In this document: in pieces, positions 3,479 through 64,000 of the stretch
Numbering within the stretch: position 1 is the first letter of the stretch
Layout: every line of letters starts with the position of its first letter
Origin: Escherichia coli
GTDB taxonomy: Bacteria > Pseudomonadota > Gammaproteobacteria > Enterobacterales > Enterobacteriaceae
DNA length: 64,000 bases
Direction: 5' to 3' (one strand)
NCBI RefSeq assembly: GCF_030013595.1
Contig: NZ_CP122768.1
Position numbers and translations under genes: made by a program
The notes under the pieces: model-generated
What the model saw: the letters and a program-made list of their open reading frames with translations, nothing else
Told to the model about the DNA's origin: nothing
Databases searched by the model: none

Positions 3479-4531
3479 ATGAAAAAGACCCGTACAGCCA
3501 ATTTGCACCATCTTTATCATGAACCCTTACCCGAAAACCTGAAGCTCACGCCGAAGGTCGAAGTGGATAATGTTCATCAACGACAGACAACGGACGTCTA
3601 TGAACATGCTTTGACAATTACCGCCTGGCAGCAGATTTACGATCAGCTGCATCCGGGCAAGTTTCATGGTGAATTTACGGAAATTCTACTCGATGATATT
3701 CAGGTTTTTCGTGAATACACTGGTCTGGCGCTGCGTCAGTCGTGCCTGGTCTGGCCGAACTCGTTCTGGTTTGGCATTCCGGCGACGCGCGGTGAGCTGG
3801 GATTTATCGGTTCGCAATGTCTGGGAAGCGCAGAAATTGCGACGCGCCCGGGTGGAACTGAGTTTGAATTAAGTACGCCGGACGATTACACGATCCTTGG
3901 CGTAGTGCTTTCTGAAGATGTCATCACTCGTCAGGCTAACTTTTTGCATAATCCGGATCGGGTATTACATATGCTGCGTAGCCAGTCGGCGCTGGAAGTG
4001 AAAGAGCAGCATAAAGCCGCGCTGTGGGGCTTTGTCCAACAGGCGCTGGCGACGTTTTGCGAGAACCCGGAAAATCTCCATCAGCCTGCAGTGCGAAAAG
4101 TGCTGGGGGATAATTTGCTAATGGCGATGGGGGCGATGCTGGAAGAAGCGCAGCCGATGATGACGGCGGAAAGCATCAGTCATCAGAGTTACCGTCGATT
4201 GCTTTCCCGCGCCCGTGAATATGTGCTGGAAAACATGTCCGAACCGGTGACGGTGCTGGACTTGTGTAATCAACTGCATGTCAGCCGCCGCACGCTACAA
4301 AACGCGTTTCACGCCATTTTGGGCATTGGTCCGAACGCGTGGCTGAAACGTATTCGCCTGAACGCCGTGCGCCGCGAACTCATAAGTCCGTGGTCACAAA
4401 GCACAACGGTAAAAGACGCCGCCATGCAGTGGGGATTCTGGCATCTTGGGCAATTTGCCACGGATTATCAGCAACTGTTTGCCGAGAAGCCGTCACTGAC
4501 GCTGCATCAGCGGATGCGAGAGTGGGGGTGA
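3479..4531 (+). CDS. eutR: AraC-family transcriptional activator of the eut operon
   Basis: 350-aa ORF; C-terminal AraC-type HTH ([42 protein letters not shown]); last gene of eut cluster. Confidence 0.93.
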
Positions 4532-59199: not shown

Positions 59200-60120
59200 T
59201 TAAATGTATAGCGACGATTCTCCCACCGGGCGCGTTTTAAAGCGACGGTGGATCCAGAGGTACTGCTCCGGTGCGCGCATGATCTCTTTTTCGATAATCT
59301 TGTTCATATAGGCAGCGGCTTGATTTTCATCTGCCGGGTAGCCTTCCATCTCTGGGGTGATGTACAAACGATATCCGCTGTAATCCGCTTTTCTTACCAT
59401 CGTTACGGTTAACATGGCTGCGCCAGAGAGACGTGAAAGGACATACGTACCATTGGTTGTGGCGACATTTTCCACCGCAAAGAACGGCGCGAAGGAGCTG
59501 CCTTTACGACCATAATCCTGATCGGGAGCAAACCATACCGCTTCACCTTTCTTCAGTGCACCAACAATGCCGCGCAGATTATTTCTGCCGATCATCGCTT
59601 TGTTAGAGCGCATGCGCCCACGGGTCTGCACCCATTCCATCAGCTGATTATTATGTGGACGATAGGTAGCCATCATTGGTTGACACAGTCCCATCACGCG
59701 GCCGCCCAGTTCCAGCGACATAAAATGGACGCCGACAACCATTACGCCGCGATTTTGCATTTGTGCGTGTTTAAGGTTATCCAGCCCTTCAACATCAAAC
59801 CATTTGCGTACGCGACTGTCGGGCCAGAACCACGCCATGCCGGTTTCTACCAGCGCCATGCCGAGTGAACGAAAGTTTTCGGCGATCATCTTCTCGCGCT
59901 CTTCAGCAGAATGCTGCGGGAAACAAAGTTCCAGGTTTTTACGGGCGATAGATTCACGCCGTTTCAGGAATGGTCGCGCCATTGCGCCAATACGCGTGCC
60001 GAGAAAGCAGAGAACAGGATAAGGAAGCTGTACCCAAAGCCAGAGTACACCAAGCCCAAACCATGTGAGCCAGTAGCGAGGATGCAGAAACTCGCGGGAA
60101 AATTTGCATTTTGGAAACAT
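59200..60120 (-). CDS. lpxP: lipid A palmitoleoyl-ACP acyltransferase (cold-induced)
   Basis: 306 aa from ATG 60118-60120 (MFPKCKFSREFLHPRYWLTWFGLGVLWLW...); LpxL/LpxP late acyltransferase family. Confidence 0.9.
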   Translation of the reverse strand: MFPKCKFSREFLHPRYWLTWFGLGVLWLWVQLPYPVLCFLGTRIGAMARPFLKRRESIARKNLELCFPQHSAEEREKMIAENFRSLGMALVETGMAWFWPDSRVRKWFDVEGLDNLKHAQMQNRGVMVVGVHFMSLELGGRVMGLCQPMMATYRPHNNQLMEWVQTRGRMRSNKAMIGRNNLRGIVGALKKGEAVWFAPDQDYGRKGSSFAPFFAVENVATTNGTYVLSRLSGAAMLTVTMVRKADYSGYRLYITPEMEGYPADENQAAAYMNKIIEKEIMRAPEQYLWIHRRFKTRPVGESSLYI

Positions 60121-60472
60121 AGTTACCTTCTGTAGATACGAATTGTTGTATCGCAGAAGATTCCATGTCGACAGCGGTACACTCAATTGGTTGGGCCATC
60201 ATGTACGACAATGGTTCCTGTAAAGAGTGTAAAGACTAGTCAGGACATAACCACGAGGAGCATGAATGCGGTATCTGTACTTTATCACTGGCTGACTGCT
60301 TTCAGCTACTGATTATTAATCGTGCAAAGTAAATATTTTTCCGTACGCAACAGTCTTGCATTTAACATGCTGTTTTCATTGATGCTTAGCAAAAATTGCC
60401 AGAGGTTAAGGATTGTCTTACTATTAAAGTGACTGAAGTTACAGGTTTTTTAGCGCGGCAGGAGGTTGAGCT

Positions 60473-60715
60473 ATGATTTATTTATGGATGTTTCTCGCCC
60501 TGTGTATTGTCTGCGTAAGCGGATACATCGGTCAGGTACTGAACGTGGTCTCGGCGGTCTCTTCTTTCTTCGGCATGGTGATCCTCGCTGCACTCATTTA
60601 CTACTTCACCATGTGGTTAACAGGCGGTAATGAACTAGTGACGGGGATATTTATGTTTCTTGCCCCGGCTTGTGGCTTGATGATTCGCTTTATGGTGGGG
60701 TATGGCAGGCGGTAG
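60473..60715 (+). CDS. yfdY: small inner membrane protein YfdY
   Basis: 80-aa ORF with RBS GGAGG upstream; predicted TM helices. Confidence 0.85.
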   Translation: MIYLWMFLALCIVCVSGYIGQVLNVVSAVSSFFGMVILAALIYYFTMWLTGGNELVTGIFMFLAPACGLMIRFMVGYGRR

Positions 60716-60791
60716 TAGTTCAGGATGGATCATTTGGGCAGGTGCTCACATCATCAACAGATATGATTGTTCACCTGCCATGTGACAGACG

Positions 60792-61067
60792 CTATCGCAC
60801 AGGATGAATAAGATAATTCGCCTTTGTCGGAAAAGGGGGCGTGATGTCTTCTGTGAGATTTAATGGTGGCGCATCTTCTCTCATCTTAAACAAAATCGCC
60901 TGTGATGGCTGAAGTTTTGTAGAATGAGTTGTCGTCATCACTGACGTTTTTTCTGTCTCTTTATAGCTCGTCTCACTTCCACCACCAGAAATGGAAAATG
61001 CAAAAACATTGCATGCCATAATAGAGACCAATAAAAATAAGCTAAAAAGCATTAAGTTTACTTTCAT
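60792..61067 (-). CDS. ypdI: putative lipoprotein YpdI
   Basis: 91-aa ORF; signal peptide with lipobox-like IMACN. Confidence 0.85.
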   Translation of the reverse strand: MKVNLMLFSLFLLVSIMACNVFAFSISGGGSETSYKETEKTSVMTTTHSTKLQPSQAILFKMREDAPPLNLTEDITPPFPTKANYLIHPVR

Positions 61068-61209
61068 AGAAAGTTATCCTGAGAATGGCTCACTGAGAAC
61101 CTACGATGTTATGGCTGTATTTACATTTAATTAATCAGTATTTACATCGATATAATAAATGACATCTCTTTGTGGTATATAAGAATAGTTCTCTGCGACA
61201 GGAAGCATA

Positions 61210-61227
61210 TTCCTACAATTGTAAGAC
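61210..61227 (+). promoter_or_regulatory. EvgA-box-like inverted repeat upstream of yfdX
   Basis: TTCCTACAATTGTAAGAC fits the remembered EvgA consensus TTCYTACA-NN-TGTARGAA at 16 of 18 positions; a second partial copy CTACAACTGTAAGAT lies about 61253-61267. Confidence 0.5.
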
Positions 61228-61362
61228 TAAAATACTTCTTGCGATAATAACTACAACTGTAAGATAACCCTTTCAAAATGACCGTTGCTCTCTGATTTCT
61301 CATTTCATGCTCACCCAATATGATGGCGGCGTTTTCTAAAACTGTTAAAGAATGAGGTAAGT

Positions 61363-61995
61363 ATGAAACGTTTAATTATGGCTACGATGGTCACAGCAAT
61401 TCTGGCATCTTCAACTGTATGGGCGGCTGATAATGCACCGGTAGCGGCACAACAGCAAACTCAGCAAGTTCAGCAAACCCAGAAAACGGCAGCAGCAGAG
61501 CGTATCTCTGAACAAGGTTTATATGCGATGCGTGACGTGCAGGTAGCGCGCCTGGCTCTGTTTCATGGCGATCCGGAAAAGGCAAAAGAACTGACCAATG
61601 AAGCTTCAGCTTTGTTGTCAGATGACAGTACCGAATGGGCAAAGTTCGCTAAGCCAGGTAAAAAAACCAATGTCAATGATGACCAATATATTGTCATTAA
61701 TGCATCTATCGGAATTTCTGAGAGTTATGTAGCGACACCCGAAAAAGAAGCCGCGATAAAAATTGCCAACGAAAAAATGGCGAAAGGGGATAAAAAGGGC
61801 GCAATGGAAGAGCTTCGCCTGGCCGGTGTTGGCGTAATGGAAAACCAATATCTGATGCCGCTCAAACAGACTCGTAATGCACTTGCTGATGCGCAGAAAC
61901 TGCTTGATAAAAAGCAATACTACGAGGCAAACCTGGCGCTTAAAGGTGCGGAAGATGGAATCATCGTCGATAGCGAAGCACTGTTTGTGAACTAA
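61363..61995 (+). CDS. yfdX: periplasmic protein YfdX
   Basis: 210-aa ORF; signal peptide [21 protein letters not shown]. Confidence 0.9.
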
Positions 61996-62238
61996 TGCTG
62001 ACAGGCAGTATATTGAGGTAAAGGATTTAACTCCCTCCAGCCGACAATTTTTTATGACCACAATACGACAGATTGTGGTCATAAAATTATTTGGCGCTCG
62101 CGGTTCTATAAACTCGCATTTTATCTTCCTCAAAGTAAACCGCAATAATCCCGTGTCATCACAAATCATTTATTATGTTATGTTTTATGGTACGCTTTAA
62201 AAAGCGTAATCATACCCTTACTTGTAAATCACCGGCGC

Positions 62239-62256
62239 TTCTTACAGTTGTAAGAA
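62239..62256 (+). promoter_or_regulatory. EvgA-box-like inverted repeat upstream of frc
   Basis: TTCTTACAGTTGTAAGAA is a perfect 8-NN-8 inverted repeat matching the remembered consensus TTCYTACA-NN-TGTARGAA. Confidence 0.5.
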
Positions 62257-62507
62257 TAACATCACAAATGTCGCGGCTCTCTCTGATTACCGCGAACCAA
62301 TATTTATCATATTCTTCTTTTCGTCCTCACTACTTACCATGCAGAAAGGAATTGGAAGTGGCGATGAAATAATTTTCAGCACTTGATACAGGAATTTAAA
62401 AATATCGAGTGCAGCTACGACGATATTTTGCGGATTATTTATAGAGGGCGTTATGCCTTAAATAAACGCTAAATTAACATATATTTAATTAACTAATAGG
62501 TATTGCT

Positions 62508-63758
62508 ATGTCAACTCCACTTCAAGGAATTAAAGTTCTCGATTTCACCGGTGTGCAATCTGGCCCATCTTGTACTCAAATGCTGGCCTGGTTTGGCGCT
62601 GACGTCATTAAAATTGAACGTCCCGGCGTTGGTGACGTAACGCGTCACCAGCTGCGAGATATTCCTGATATCGATGCGCTTTACTTCACCATGCTTAACA
62701 GTAACAAACGTTCTATTGAATTAAATACCAAAACAGCGGAAGGCAAAGAGGTAATGGAAAAGCTGATCCGCGAAGCTGATATCTTAGTCGAGAACTTTCA
62801 TCCTGGGGCCATTGATCACATGGGCTTCACCTGGGAGCATATTCAAGAAATCAATCCACGTCTGATTTTTGGTTCGATCAAAGGGTTTGATGAGTGTTCG
62901 CCTTATGTGAATGTAAAAGCCTATGAAAACGTTGCTCAGGCAGCGGGTGGCGCGGCATCCACTACGGGTTTTTGGGACGGTCCGCCGCTGGTAAGCGCTG
63001 CAGCGTTGGGTGACAGCAACACCGGAATGCATTTACTGATCGGTTTACTTGCTGCTTTGCTGCATCGCGAAAAAACGGGGCGTGGGCAACGAGTCACCAT
63101 GTCAATGCAGGATGCCGTATTGAACCTTTGCCGCGTGAAATTACGCGACCAGCAGCGTCTCGATAAATTGGGTTATCTGGAAGAATACCCGCAGTATCCG
63201 AATGGCACATTTGGTGATGCAGTTCCCCGCGGAGGTAATGCGGGTGGTGGCGGTCAGCCTGGCTGGATCCTGAAATGTAAAGGCTGGGAAACCGATCCTA
63301 ACGCCTATATTTATTTCACTATTCAGGAGCAAAACTGGGAAAACACCTGTAAAGCCATCGGCAAACCAGATTGGATTACCGATCCGGCATACAGTACAGC
63401 CCATGCCCGACAGCCACATATTTTCGATATTTTTGCTGAAATCGAAAAATACACTGTCACTATTGATAAACATGAAGCGGTGGCCTATTTGACTCAGTTT
63501 GATATTCCTTGTGCACCGGTTTTAAGTATGAAAGAAATTTCACTTGATCCCTCTTTGCGCCAAAGTGGCAGTGTTGTTGAAGTGGAACAACCGTTGCGTG
63601 GAAAATATCTGACAGTTGGTTGTCCAATGAAATTCTCTGCCTTTACGCCGGATATTAAAGCTGCGCCGCTATTAGGTGAACATACCGCTGCTGTATTGCA
63701 GGCGCTGGGTTATAGCGACGATGAAATTGCTGCAATGAAGCAAAACCACGCCATCTGA
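62508..63758 (+). CDS. frc: formyl-CoA:oxalate CoA-transferase
   Basis: 416-aa ORF ([40 protein letters not shown]...), family III CoA-transferase. Confidence 0.92.
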
Positions 63759-63811
63759 TATTAACGGGGGCTTCTGGCTCCCAATTTATAAAAATTTCGA
63801 GGTTATTAATC

Positions 63812-64000
63812 ATGTCAGATCAACTTCAAATGACAGATGGTATGCATATCATCGTTGAAGCATTAAAACAGAATGATATTGACACTATTTATGGTGTTGT
63901 AGGTATTCCTGTGACGGATATGGCACGCCATGCCCAGGCGGAAGGCATTCGTTATATTGGTTTTCGTCATGAGCAGTCGGCAGGCTATGCCGCTGCGGCA
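63812..64000 (+). CDS. oxc: oxalyl-CoA decarboxylase, 5' end only (continues beyond window end)
   Basis: ATG 63812; [62 protein letters not shown], the N-terminal domain of a ThDP-dependent enzyme; downstream of frc. Confidence 0.85.

What the first reader, a model, noticed from the sequence alone, without database searches (positions are those of the whole stretch)
62050..62086. 14-bp perfect inverted repeat immediately downstream of yfdX
TTTATGACCACAAT (62051-62064) and ATTGTGGTCATAAA (62072-62085) form a perfect 14-bp stem around a 7-nt loop, 55 bp after the yfdX stop. The following sequence is only moderately T-rich. It may be the yfdX terminator, separating yfdX from frc, or a protein-binding palindrome.
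Basis: seen in the sequence. Interest (0 to 1): 0.25.

Follow-up and report, generated by a model that had tools for sequence, protein, structure and literature searches.

The report
Conserved RNA hairpin ending yfdX message
The perfect inverted repeat just after the acid-stress gene yfdX is real and conserved across genera, and it most likely folds into a hairpin at the tail of the yfdX messenger RNA that marks and protects its 3' end; this is an ordinary kind of element, it is not annotated, and it is not a textbook terminator.

Summary
The repeat is 15 bp perfect (62050-62064 / 62072-62086, 7-nt loop). It is the longest perfect hairpin in the 64-kb window, and none of 200 Markov shuffles gave an arm of 13 or more.

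The window is E. coli: yfdX (61363-61995), then frc (62508-63758).

The hairpin is single-copy and unannotated. It is conserved in Escherichia, Yersinia and an unnamed relative, although the rest of the spacer has diverged about as far as synonymous sites (40-49% identity).

- **Variation preserves pairing.** One pair occurs as A-U, G.U and G-C. The two one-sided changes give G.U wobbles only on the yfdX-sense strand.
- **The stem grows in one lineage.** The extra pair changes the spacing between the conserved cores from 9 to 11 nt.
- **Reading.** Together these favour an RNA stem-loop over a DNA operator.

It does not behave like a canonical intrinsic terminator. The stem is AT-rich. The weak U-rich tail (UUAUUUGG) is absent in Yersinia and the unnamed relative. 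It scores about -16, against +16 to +30 for four true terminators in the same window.

My best reading, at confidence about 0.55, is a 3'-UTR stem-loop that defines and protects the yfdX mRNA 3' end at the yfdX | frc-oxc boundary, and leaks as a terminator at most. Function is inferred, not shown. Interest is low to moderate.

The parts
62050..62064 (+). Left (5') arm of the hairpin, TTTTATGACCACAAT
   Evidence: Perfect complement of 62072-62086. The inner core G[A/G]CCACAA is invariant in Escherichia, Yersinia and L025.
62065..62071 (+). Loop, ACGACAG
   Evidence: It varies between lineages while the arms do not: ACGATAG in L007, ATGATTG in Yersinia, ACGGAAC in L025. Strain 730V1 (L018) has an IS903B insertion here.
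62072..62086 (+). Right (3') arm of the hairpin, ATTGTGGTCATAAAA
   Evidence: Position 62072 is G in most E. coli, giving U.G on the + strand. Position 62080 co-varies with 62056 as A-U, G.U or G-C.
62087..62094 (+). Tail after the stem, TTATTTGG (5 U of 8): a weak, non-conserved U-tract
   Evidence: The simple terminator scan flags it. The T-tract score is 2.9, against 3.8-4.4 for true terminators. It is replaced by CTCTCTGT in Yersinia and ATGTCCTG in L025.
62087..62186 (+). C-rich, G-poor 100 nt downstream of the stem: a candidate rut-like region
   Evidence: C/G is 1.69 here and 1.5-1.7 across the Escherichia loci, which is the top 6% of 100-nt windows. It is 2.75-3.0 in Yersinia (top 0.1%) but only about 1.1 in L025 and L030.
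61363..61995 (+). yfdX coding sequence, whose 3' UTR contains the hairpin
   Evidence: ORF; RefSeq annotation 'YfdX family protein'. The 3' end of the hairpin lies 87-96 nt after the stop in every lineage.
62120..62149 (+). Constitutive sigma-70 promoter proposed for frc (TTTATC-18-AATAAT here; TTTATA-18-AATAAT in K-12)
   Evidence: Genomic SELEX with the RpoD holoenzyme lists this promoter and H-NS in the frc/yfdX spacer (PMC3946193). I matched the motif to the sequence read. This is context: it places the hairpin upstream of all frc promoters.
62239..62256 (+). EvgA box upstream of frc, TTCTTACAGTTGTAAGAA (context, not part of the hairpin)
   Evidence: Exact match to TTCYTACA-N2-TGTARGAA. 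It is conserved in Yersinia. PMC3720670 states that EvgA binds inverted repeats upstream of both yfdX and yfdW/frc.
62508..63758 (+). frc (formyl-CoA transferase), the downstream gene
   Evidence: ORF; RefSeq annotation.

Best explanation
The repeat encodes a stem-loop in the 3' untranslated region of the yfdX mRNA, on the + strand, ending 91 nt after the stop codon.

When yfdX is transcribed from its EvgA-activated promoter, the 15-bp helix forms in the RNA. Its conserved job is to define and protect the 3' end of the yfdX message. Transcripts that stop shortly downstream are trimmed back by 3'-to-5' exonucleases until they meet the helix. Such transcripts could arise from Rho acting on the C-rich, G-poor sequence that follows, from the weak U-rich tail in E. 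coli, or from cleavage of read-through yfdX-frc RNA.

In E. coli the tail UUAUUUGG may add some leaky intrinsic termination. This would partly insulate the frc promoters just downstream while still allowing the reported yfdXWUVE co-transcription.

Shown here: the repeat, its statistical exceptionality, its conservation, the pairing-preserving and strand-specific pattern of variation, and its poor fit to canonical terminators.

Inferred: that it is transcribed and folds in vivo, and that its role is 3'-end definition and stabilisation.
For: 1. It is an exceptional hairpin: 0 of 200 shuffles reach 13 bp, and RNA fold z = -7.3.

2. It is under purifying selection. E. coli and Yersinia arms are 28/28 identical while loop and flanks are 16/37 identical (Fisher p = 2e-7). 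Four-fold synonymous sites in the flanking genes are only 43-49% identical between E. coli and Yersinia.

3. Pairing is what is kept. Pair 62056:62080 occurs in three states:
- A-U in most E. coli and in Y. vastinensis/alsatica.
- G-C in an E. coli lineage of 257 complete genomes and independently in L025.
- G.U in Yersinia-like L023.
Overall 95.5% of cells are paired, against 35-50% when partners are slid. The covariation score is 0.104 against 0.048 in shuffles, reached by 1 of 500. RNAalifold gives the same helix.

4. Strand polarity. Both one-sided changes (62072 A>G in most E. coli; the left-arm A>G in L023) give G.U on the + strand but A.C on the - strand. The + strand fold is more stable than the - strand fold: -18.0 vs -15.7 in K-12 and -17.5 vs -12.1 in L023.

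5. In L025 the stem gains an extra C-G pair at the top, so the invariant CCACAA/TTGTGG cores are 11 rather than 9 nt apart. That is harmless for a hairpin.

6. Its position is fixed relative to the yfdX stop, with the stem ending 87-96 nt after it in five lineages.

7. No conserved U-tract follows it. The sequence downstream is C-rich and G-poor, strongly so in Yersinia. This matches the class described by Dar & Sorek 2018 (PMC6061677).

8. A Rho-termination region was detected at yfdX in K-12 (PMC7815308 supplementary file 2).

9. Lineages with a 113-124-nt yfdX-frc spacer, where frc probably has no room for the E. coli-type promoter region (my inference from spacer length), still carry U-less stem-loops at the same relative position. 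That fits a stabiliser or processing role better than a full stop.
Against: - No experimental 3' end is available. yfdX is barely expressed in the conditions used for published E. coli Term-seq, and no curated 3' end is listed there.
- The covariation rests on two variable pairs and few independent lineages. Ten of the 15 pairs never vary.
- The near-absolute sequence conservation of the core across genera, despite saturated synonymous sites, exceeds what a purely structural constraint usually gives. It hints at sequence-specific recognition by something unidentified.
- Symmetric double substitutions in palindromes can also arise by template-switch mutation without selection (established knowledge, not tested here).
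- The rut-like composition is only moderate in E. coli and absent in L025 and L030.
- The hairpins in the short-spacer lineages are of mixed significance (z from -0.4 to -4.0) and may not be homologous.
Confidence: 0.55

Rival explanations
1. It is a canonical Rho-independent terminator that efficiently ends yfdX transcription and fully separates yfdX from frc.
For: - It is a stable hairpin 55 nt after the stop on the sense strand, followed by UUAUUUGG. The simple consensus scan reports it.
- yfdX and frc each have their own EvgA box (PMC3720670).
- frc has a further promoter mapped just downstream (PMC3946193).
Against: - The stem has few G-C pairs (4 of 15 by the scan's count), and A-U pairs lie next to the tail.
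- The T-tract score is 2.9 in E. coli and about 1.0-1.1 in Yersinia and L025.
- The d score is -16 in E. coli and -44 to -53 elsewhere, against +16 to +30 for four genuine terminators in the same window.
- The tail is not conserved although the stem is.
- The literature treats yfdXWUVE as co-expressed (PMC3720670).
- yfdX, frc, oxc and yfdV are induced to similar extents under acid stress (PMC10746267).
Confidence: 0.15
2. It is a double-stranded DNA operator: a palindromic binding site for a dimeric regulator, not yet identified, that acts on the frc-oxc promoters or on yfdX.
For: - The core G[A/G]CCACAA / TTGTGG[T/C]C is conserved in sequence across genera whose synonymous sites are saturated. 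That is more than structure alone usually demands.
- It lies about 180 bp upstream of the EvgA box of frc in a regulatory spacer bound by H-NS (PMC3946193).
- Symmetric changes in both half-sites are also what a symmetric operator could tolerate.
Against: - The distance between the invariant cores is 9 nt in Escherichia and Yersinia but 11 nt in L025, because of an added C-G pair. That would rotate the half-sites by about 70 degrees.
- One-sided variants are wobble-compatible on the sense strand only.
- No second copy exists in 5,426 E. coli genomes at BLAST sensitivity, in phages or in genuine plasmids. So there is no regulon.
- No regulator gene is co-conserved next to it in E. coli, Yersinia and L025.
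- It does not match the EvgA box.
- From memory, it matches no other E. coli operator consensus. Each arm contains a RutR-like half-site TGACCA, but the two are 17 bp apart instead of 2.
- No SELEX or ChIP report maps a factor here.
Confidence: 0.15
3. It is a conditional RNA switch point: a hairpin recognised by an RNA-binding protein or small RNA that sets how much transcription or mRNA continues from yfdX into frc-oxc-yfdVE.
For: - It has the same structural evidence as the best explanation.
- The unusually strict sequence conservation of the stem would be explained by sequence-specific recognition of the folded RNA.
- It sits exactly where read-through into the oxalate-catabolism genes would be decided.
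Against: - No alternative (antiterminator) pairing is evident in the folds.
- No Rfam family matches. The only hits are spurious microRNA models far below their thresholds.
- The loop is not conserved.
- No ligand or partner is known.
Confidence: 0.1
4. It has no function: a chance or relic palindrome kept perfect by template-switch (quasi-palindrome correction) mutation.
For: - Palindromes can homogenise their arms by replication template switching (established knowledge).
- One strain carries an IS903B insertion in the loop, and one strain carries an unpaired substitution.
Against: The arms are 28/28 identical between E. coli and Yersinia, while the adjacent spacer and synonymous sites are about 40-49% identical. 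The position relative to the yfdX stop is also conserved. A mutational mechanism keeps the arms alike but does not stop both from drifting.
Confidence: 0.05

Closest known systems
[quoted passage not shown]
   Same: - It is an energetically stable stem-loop in a 3' UTR.
- No conserved uridine tract follows it.
- C-rich, G-poor (rut-like) sequence lies immediately downstream in Yersinia, and moderately so in E. coli.
- A Rho-termination region has been reported at yfdX (PMC7815308).
   Different: - No 3' end has been mapped here.
- The E. coli allele does have a weak U-rich tail.
- The stem sequence is far more conserved than such structures need to be.
- The rut-like composition is absent in L025 and L030.
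Rho-independent (intrinsic) terminators
   Same: It is a hairpin on the sense strand shortly after a stop codon. In E. coli it is followed by 5 U in 8 nt, and a consensus scan flags it.
   Different: - The stem is AT-rich, with a 5' U-run and a 3' A-run. That is the reverse of the usual A-tract / GC stem / U-tract layout seen in the window's true terminators.
- The score is negative.
- The tail is not conserved.
Intercistronic mRNA-stabilising hairpins, such as REP elements between malE and malF (from general knowledge, not tested here)
   Same: It is a stable stem-loop between two co-expressed cistrons. It could protect the upstream message from 3' exonucleases and uncouple the levels of the two products. 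Relatives with 113-124-nt spacers keep a U-less hairpin between yfdX and frc.
   Different: It is single-copy and locus-specific, not a dispersed repeat family. No stability data exist.
EvgA box (18-bp palindrome TTCYTACA-N2-TGTARGAA) in the same spacer
   Same: It is a perfect palindrome in the yfdX-frc regulatory region, and it is also conserved in Yersinia.
   Different: The sequence and geometry differ: 15-bp arms with a 7-nt gap, against 8-bp arms with a 2-nt gap. The EvgA pattern does not match the hairpin even with 2 mismatches allowed.

Membership tests
Rho-independent (intrinsic) terminator | Stable, usually G+C-rich stem-loop on the transcribed strand just downstream of a gene | tested here: inconclusive
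   The stem-loop is stable: -18.4 kcal/mol for the 37-mer and -26.1 with flanks. It has few G-C pairs (4 of 15 by the scan's count), and A-U pairs sit at its base.
Rho-independent (intrinsic) terminator | Uridine-rich tract immediately 3' of the stem | tested here: not met
   E. coli has UUAUUUGG (T score 2.9). Yersinia has CUCUCUGU (1.0-1.1) and L025 has AUGUCCUG (1.0). True terminators in the window score 3.8-4.4. The tract is not conserved although the stem is.
Rho-independent (intrinsic) terminator | Combined hairpin and T-tract score in the range of known terminators (d'Aubenton-Carafa d > 0; my own implementation) | tested here: not met
   d is about -16 for the full E. coli stem and -44 to -53 in the other lineages. 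Four canonical terminators in the same window score +16 to +30.
Rho-independent (intrinsic) terminator | Factor-independent release of RNA 7-9 nt after the stem, in vitro or in vivo | not testable with these tools
   This needs in vitro transcription or Term-seq under EvgA-inducing conditions. Published Term-seq lists no curated 3' end for yfdX, but the gene is poorly expressed in those conditions.
Protective 3' stem-loop of Rho-dependent transcripts (Dar & Sorek class) | Energetically stable stem-loop not followed by a U-rich sequence | tested here: met
   This is met outright in Yersinia and L025. In E. coli the tail is only weakly U-rich.
Protective 3' stem-loop of Rho-dependent transcripts (Dar & Sorek class) | rut-like C-rich, G-poor sequence immediately downstream | tested here: inconclusive
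   C/G over 100 nt is 1.5-1.7 in Escherichia (top 6% of windows), 2.75-3.0 in Yersinia (top 0.1%) and 1.1-1.2 in L025 and L030.
Protective 3' stem-loop of Rho-dependent transcripts (Dar & Sorek class) | Steady-state RNA 3' end at the base of the stem, with read-through increased by bicyclomycin and trimming dependent on PNPase or RNase II | not testable with these tools
   The only indirect evidence is a Rho-termination region with its peak inside yfdX in K-12 (Rho score 3.57; PMC7815308 supplementary file 2). Its resolution is 800-nt windows.
Structured RNA element (generic test for a base-paired RNA) | Pairing maintained through substitutions, including compensatory and wobble intermediates, on one strand | tested here: met
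   - Pair 62056:62080 occurs as A-U, G.U and G-C, and the top pair as U-A, U.G and C-G.
- 95.5% of cells are paired, against 35-50% in slid controls.
- The covariation score is reached by 1 of 500 shuffles.
- RNAalifold gives the same helix.
- The + strand folds better than the - strand for the variants.
The caveat is that only 2 of 15 pairs show two-sided change.
Palindromic transcription-factor operator | Fixed spacing and phase of the two half-sites | tested here: not met
   The invariant CCACAA and TTGTGG cores are 9 nt apart in Escherichia and Yersinia and 11 nt apart in L025.
Palindromic transcription-factor operator | Match to a known operator consensus, or further sites forming a regulon | tested here: not met
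   There is no match to the EvgA box pattern. The 49-mer hits only this locus in 5,404 of 5,426 E. coli genomes; the second 'place' in each record is the palindrome matching its own other strand. The covariance model finds no other copy in the window or in related loci. Comparison with other consensus sequences was from memory only.
Dispersed repeat families (REP/BIME, ERIC and similar) | Many copies per genome | tested here: not met
   It is single-copy in the window and in E. coli genomes. Rfam has no real match.

The most novel reading that the evidence does not exclude
The hairpin is a sequence-specifically recognised RNA (or DNA) element: a dedicated control point where an unidentified protein or small RNA decides how much expression passes from the periplasmic stress protein gene yfdX into the oxalate-decarboxylation genes frc-oxc-yfdVE. 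This would explain why the stem sequence, and not only its pairing, has stayed identical between Escherichia and Yersinia while synonymous sites have saturated.
Probability: 0.12. Interest if true: 0.55.

Novelty: new member of a known kind. Interest (0 to 1): 0.3.

Why it matters
The yfdX | frc-oxc-yfdV-yfdE cluster belongs to the EvgA acid-resistance regulon and is needed for oxalate-induced acid tolerance. Its transcript architecture has been described inconsistently, both as a single 'yfdXWUVE operon' and as separate yfdX and yfdWUVE units.

A conserved, unannotated RNA stem-loop exactly at the boundary gives a concrete, mutable element to test. It could show how the abundant periplasmic YfdX and the cytoplasmic oxalate enzymes are expressed at different levels from overlapping transcripts.

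It is also a clean example of a 3'-UTR hairpin that a simple terminator scan calls a terminator, although comparative data show the U-tract is dispensable. Beyond that it is an ordinary kind of element.

Tried and rejected
- **Rfam scan of 60000-64000 at permissive E-value.** It gave only two spurious eukaryotic microRNA models, far below their thresholds.
- **Small ORF starting at the ATG in the left arm (62054, 48 aa).** It is not conserved: Yersinia has a stop after 4 codons and L025 has no ATG. Rejected.
- **Terminator for the minus strand.** The minus-strand hairpin is followed by AAAAAAUUG, and no minus-strand gene ends here. Rejected.
- **Dispersed repeat or mobile-element end.** It is single-copy in E. 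coli genomes, and phages give no match. The plasmid hits are multi-megabase records or chromosomal fragments filed as plasmids. The two viral-contig pattern hits lie inside long ORFs and look like chance. Rejected.
- **EvgA site.** The pattern search finds the two known-type boxes elsewhere, not the hairpin. Rejected.
- **Widening the phylogeny.** The genome-contig scan with YfdX gave only E. coli, one Yersinia and Buttiauxella. Buttiauxella has no frc, and REP-like elements sit there instead. The single metagenome scan, anchored on the frc promoter block, returned three E. coli alleles and one chance hit. A second protein search with L025 YfdX found no close relatives of L025.
- **Experimental 3' ends.** Adams et al. 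2021 list none for yfdX. The supplements of Dar & Sorek 2018 and of the 3'-UTR valves paper are not held. Dar & Sorek's operon-decay paper does not mention yfdX or frc in its supplements. Masuda & Church 2002 is not held.
- **SELEX and ChIP-exo literature for a factor at this spacer.** Nothing was found apart from the sigma-factor SELEX papers.
- **Automated search for the best terminator boundaries.** ViennaRNA leaves terminal A-U pairs open, so the scan skipped the full stem. I therefore use the explicit full-stem value.

Full report
**Setting**

The window is E. coli. It is 100% identical over 61900-62600 to strain HCP5S3_I2 and 97.7% identical to K-12. Around the finding the genes are:
- lpxP (-)
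- yfdY (+)
- ypdI (-)
- yfdX (+, 61363-61995)
- frc (+, 62508-63758)
- oxc (+, from 63813)

These identities come from the ORF list and the RefSeq annotation of matching records. No feature is annotated in the 512-bp yfdX-frc spacer in any of the records I inspected.

**Observation**

The inverted repeat is real and one pair longer than reported. The arms are TTTTATGACCACAAT (62050-62064) and ATTGTGGTCATAAAA (62072-62086), and the loop is ACGACAG.

It is the longest perfect hairpin in the window. The next ones have 11-12-bp arms and are textbook terminators with an A-tract, a GC stem and a T-tract. In 200 Markov shuffles of the window no hairpin reached 13 bp. As RNA the + strand folds at -26.1 kcal/mol with z = -7.3, and the - strand at -22.7 with z = -5.5.

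The perfect 15-bp form is a minority allele: 395 complete genomes carry the identical 49-mer. Most E. coli, K-12 included, have G at 62072.

**Context**

- Two matches to the EvgA-box pattern (TTCYTACA-N2-TGTARGAA; consensus recalled from memory) lie at 61210-61227, upstream of yfdX, and at 62239-62256, upstream of frc.
- Mullins et al. [quoted passage not shown] The same paper also calls the cluster the yfdXWUVE operon (PMC3720670).
- Genomic SELEX with the RpoD holoenzyme lists a constitutive frc promoter, TTTATA-18-AATAAT, and H-NS in this spacer (PMC3946193). That motif matches window 62120-62149, which starts about 35 nt after the hairpin.

The hairpin therefore lies in the yfdX 3' UTR, upstream of every proposed frc promoter.

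**Comparative evidence**

The element is single-copy:
- The 49-mer hits only this locus in 5,404 of 5,426 E. coli genomes. The second 'place' per record is the palindrome matching its own opposite strand.
- It has no match in phages, and its plasmid matches are chromosome-like E. coli records.
- A covariance model built from the alignment finds no other copy in the window or in other yfdX loci.

Orthologous yfdX-frc spacers were recovered from:
- a divergent Escherichia lineage (L007)
- Yersinia vastinensis and alsatica (L008, L019-L022)
- a second Yersinia-like lineage (L023)
- an unnamed relative with 67% YfdX identity (L025)

Between E. coli and these loci, four-fold synonymous sites in yfdX and frc are only 40-49% identical, and most of the spacer is unalignable. 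Yet the 14-bp arms are 28/28 identical between E. coli and Yersinia, against 16/37 for loop plus flanks (Fisher p = 2e-7). The only other conserved island in the spacer is the EvgA box with the promoter block behind it.

**Nature of the variation**

- *Pair 62056:62080.* It is A-T in most sequences. It is G-C in an E. coli lineage of 257 complete genomes and independently in L025. It is G.T in L023. One strain, NCTC86, has an unpaired A/G at this pair.
- *Innermost pair.* It is T-A, T.G, T.T, C.T or C-G in different sequences.
- *L025.* It adds one more C-G pair, so the invariant CCACAA and TTGTGG cores are 11 rather than 9 nt apart.
- *Pairing statistics.* On the nine-sequence alignment 95.5% of cells pair, against 35-50% when partners are slid. 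The covariation score is reached by 1 of 500 shuffles. RNAalifold recovers the same helix.
- *Strand polarity.* Both one-sided changes are purine transitions that give G.U on the + strand and A.C on the - strand. Accordingly the + strand fold is the more stable one for K-12 (-18.0 vs -15.7) and L023 (-17.5 vs -12.1).

This is the signature of a base-paired RNA on the yfdX-sense strand. It is hard to reconcile with a rigid dimeric DNA operator.

The evidence is thin in one respect. Only two pairs vary on both sides, ten never vary, and independent lineages are few. Symmetric changes in a palindrome can also be produced by template-switch mutation (general knowledge).

**What kind of hairpin**

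The simple scan calls it terminator-like because 5 of the 8 following bases are T. Several things argue against a canonical intrinsic terminator:
- The stem is AT-rich and has the reverse polarity of a normal terminator, with a U-run on the 5' side and an A-run on the 3' side.
- The tail is CUCUCUGU in Yersinia and AUGUCCUG in L025.
- A d'Aubenton-Carafa-type score (my own implementation) is about -16 in E. coli and -44 to -53 elsewhere. Four genuine terminators in the same window score +16 to +30.
- In L025 a separate small hairpin with TTTTATTAT lies 24 nt further on.

What is conserved is the stem and its position. Its 3' end lies 87-96 nt after the yfdX stop in five lineages.

The 100 nt downstream are C-rich and G-poor in Yersinia (C/G 2.75-3.0, top 0.1% of windows) and moderately so in Escherichia (1.5-1.7, top 6%). 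They are not so in L025 and L030.

This combination matches the class described by Dar & Sorek 2018: stable stem-loops without U-tracts that mark the exonuclease-trimmed 3' ends of Rho-terminated transcripts, with rut sites just downstream (PMC6061677). Adams et al. 2021 report a Rho-termination region with its peak inside yfdX. They list no curated 3' end for yfdX, which is expected because the gene is nearly silent in their conditions.

A further group of relatives has the layout hdeA, DUF308 | yfdX, frc, oxc (L038-L041; L030, on a 1.25-kb contig, shows only yfdX and frc). In all five the yfdX-frc spacer is only 113-124 nt, which I infer leaves no room for the E. coli-type frc promoter region. 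These loci also carry U-less stem-loops at the same relative place. In L030 and L038 the stem-loop is flanked by CACAA...TTGT, like the E. coli core. Their statistical support is mixed (z -3.95, -0.44, -1.36, -3.02), so I treat this only as supporting evidence.

**Conclusion**

The most likely reading, at confidence about 0.55, is a 3'-UTR RNA stem-loop that defines and protects the 3' end of the yfdX message at the boundary with frc-oxc-yfdVE. In E. coli it may also cause some leaky termination.

The rivals are:
- an efficient canonical terminator (0.15)
- an unrecognised DNA operator (0.15)
- a recognised regulatory RNA control point (0.10)
- a functionless palindrome (0.05)

One feature remains unexplained. 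The near-absolute sequence conservation of the stem core across genera is more than pairing alone would require.

All functional statements are inferences. No 3'-end, stability or binding data exist for this site in the sources I could search.

Noticed in passing
window 61210-61227 and 62239-62256: There are two EvgA-box palindromes: TTCCTACAATTGTAAGAC upstream of yfdX and a perfect TTCTTACAGTTGTAAGAA upstream of frc. The frc box and the block behind it (GTAAGAATA-N22-CTCTGATTAC) are conserved in Yersinia and partly in L025, although the rest of the spacer is unalignable.
   Followed up: partly
L018 (E. coli O19:H7 strain 730V1, NZ_CP061764.1), locus positions 1-300: An IS903B-family (IS5-like) element is inserted exactly in the loop of the hairpin and separates the right arm from the left arm. 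This strain is a natural knock-out of the hairpin and could be used to test its function.
   Followed up: partly
window 62157-62166 and 62260-62269: There is a perfect 10-bp direct repeat, CATCACAAAT, 103 bp apart. One copy lies just after the -10 element (AATAAT) of the proposed constitutive frc promoter. The other lies just after the EvgA box (AAGAATAA). It may be a shared promoter-proximal element. The hairpin core (ACCACAAT) and the L030/L038 hairpin flank (ATCACAA) contain a similar CACAA word.
   Followed up: no
L019-L022 (Yersinia alsatica and related contigs), upstream of yfdX: In Yersinia the yfdX-frc-oxc block is bordered by transposase genes or their fragments: IS1 in L019, L020 and L022, an IS3-type gene in L019, and Y1-type and HTH_Tnp_1 genes in L021. 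The block sits in different neighbourhoods; in L023 hypF is upstream. This suggests the cluster is a horizontally moved island, even though its synonymous divergence from E. coli is saturated.
   Followed up: no
L025, L038-L041: Unnamed Enterobacterales-like contigs carry a compact acid-stress cluster, with hdeA and a DUF308 (hdeD-like) gene divergent from yfdX-frc-oxc. In most of them the yfdX-frc spacer is only 113-121 nt and has no EvgA box. L030, a 1.25-kb contig, shows the same short spacer (124 nt) but too little flank to see the neighbouring genes. This is a different regulatory layout from E. coli.
   Followed up: partly
L009-L014 (Buttiauxella), about 3630-3800: Where yfdX is not followed by frc, its 3' flank holds tandem REP-like palindromic units (…GGATGACGCTGCGCTTATCCGACCTAC…) instead of the hairpin, next to a convergent hybrid sensor kinase gene.
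   Followed up: no
L015 (Limosilactobacillus vaginalis DSM 5837 scaffold, 241 bp): A 241-bp scaffold in a Lactobacillus assembly encodes the C-terminal 54 residues of E. coli YfdX at 100% identity. This is almost certainly E. coli contamination of that assembly.
   Followed up: no
L031 (GCA_053309275.1): This is an Escherichia assembly in which yfdX is split into two short ORFs (121 and 46 aa) and frc is also fragmented. The hairpin is still intact, in the G-form.
   Followed up: no
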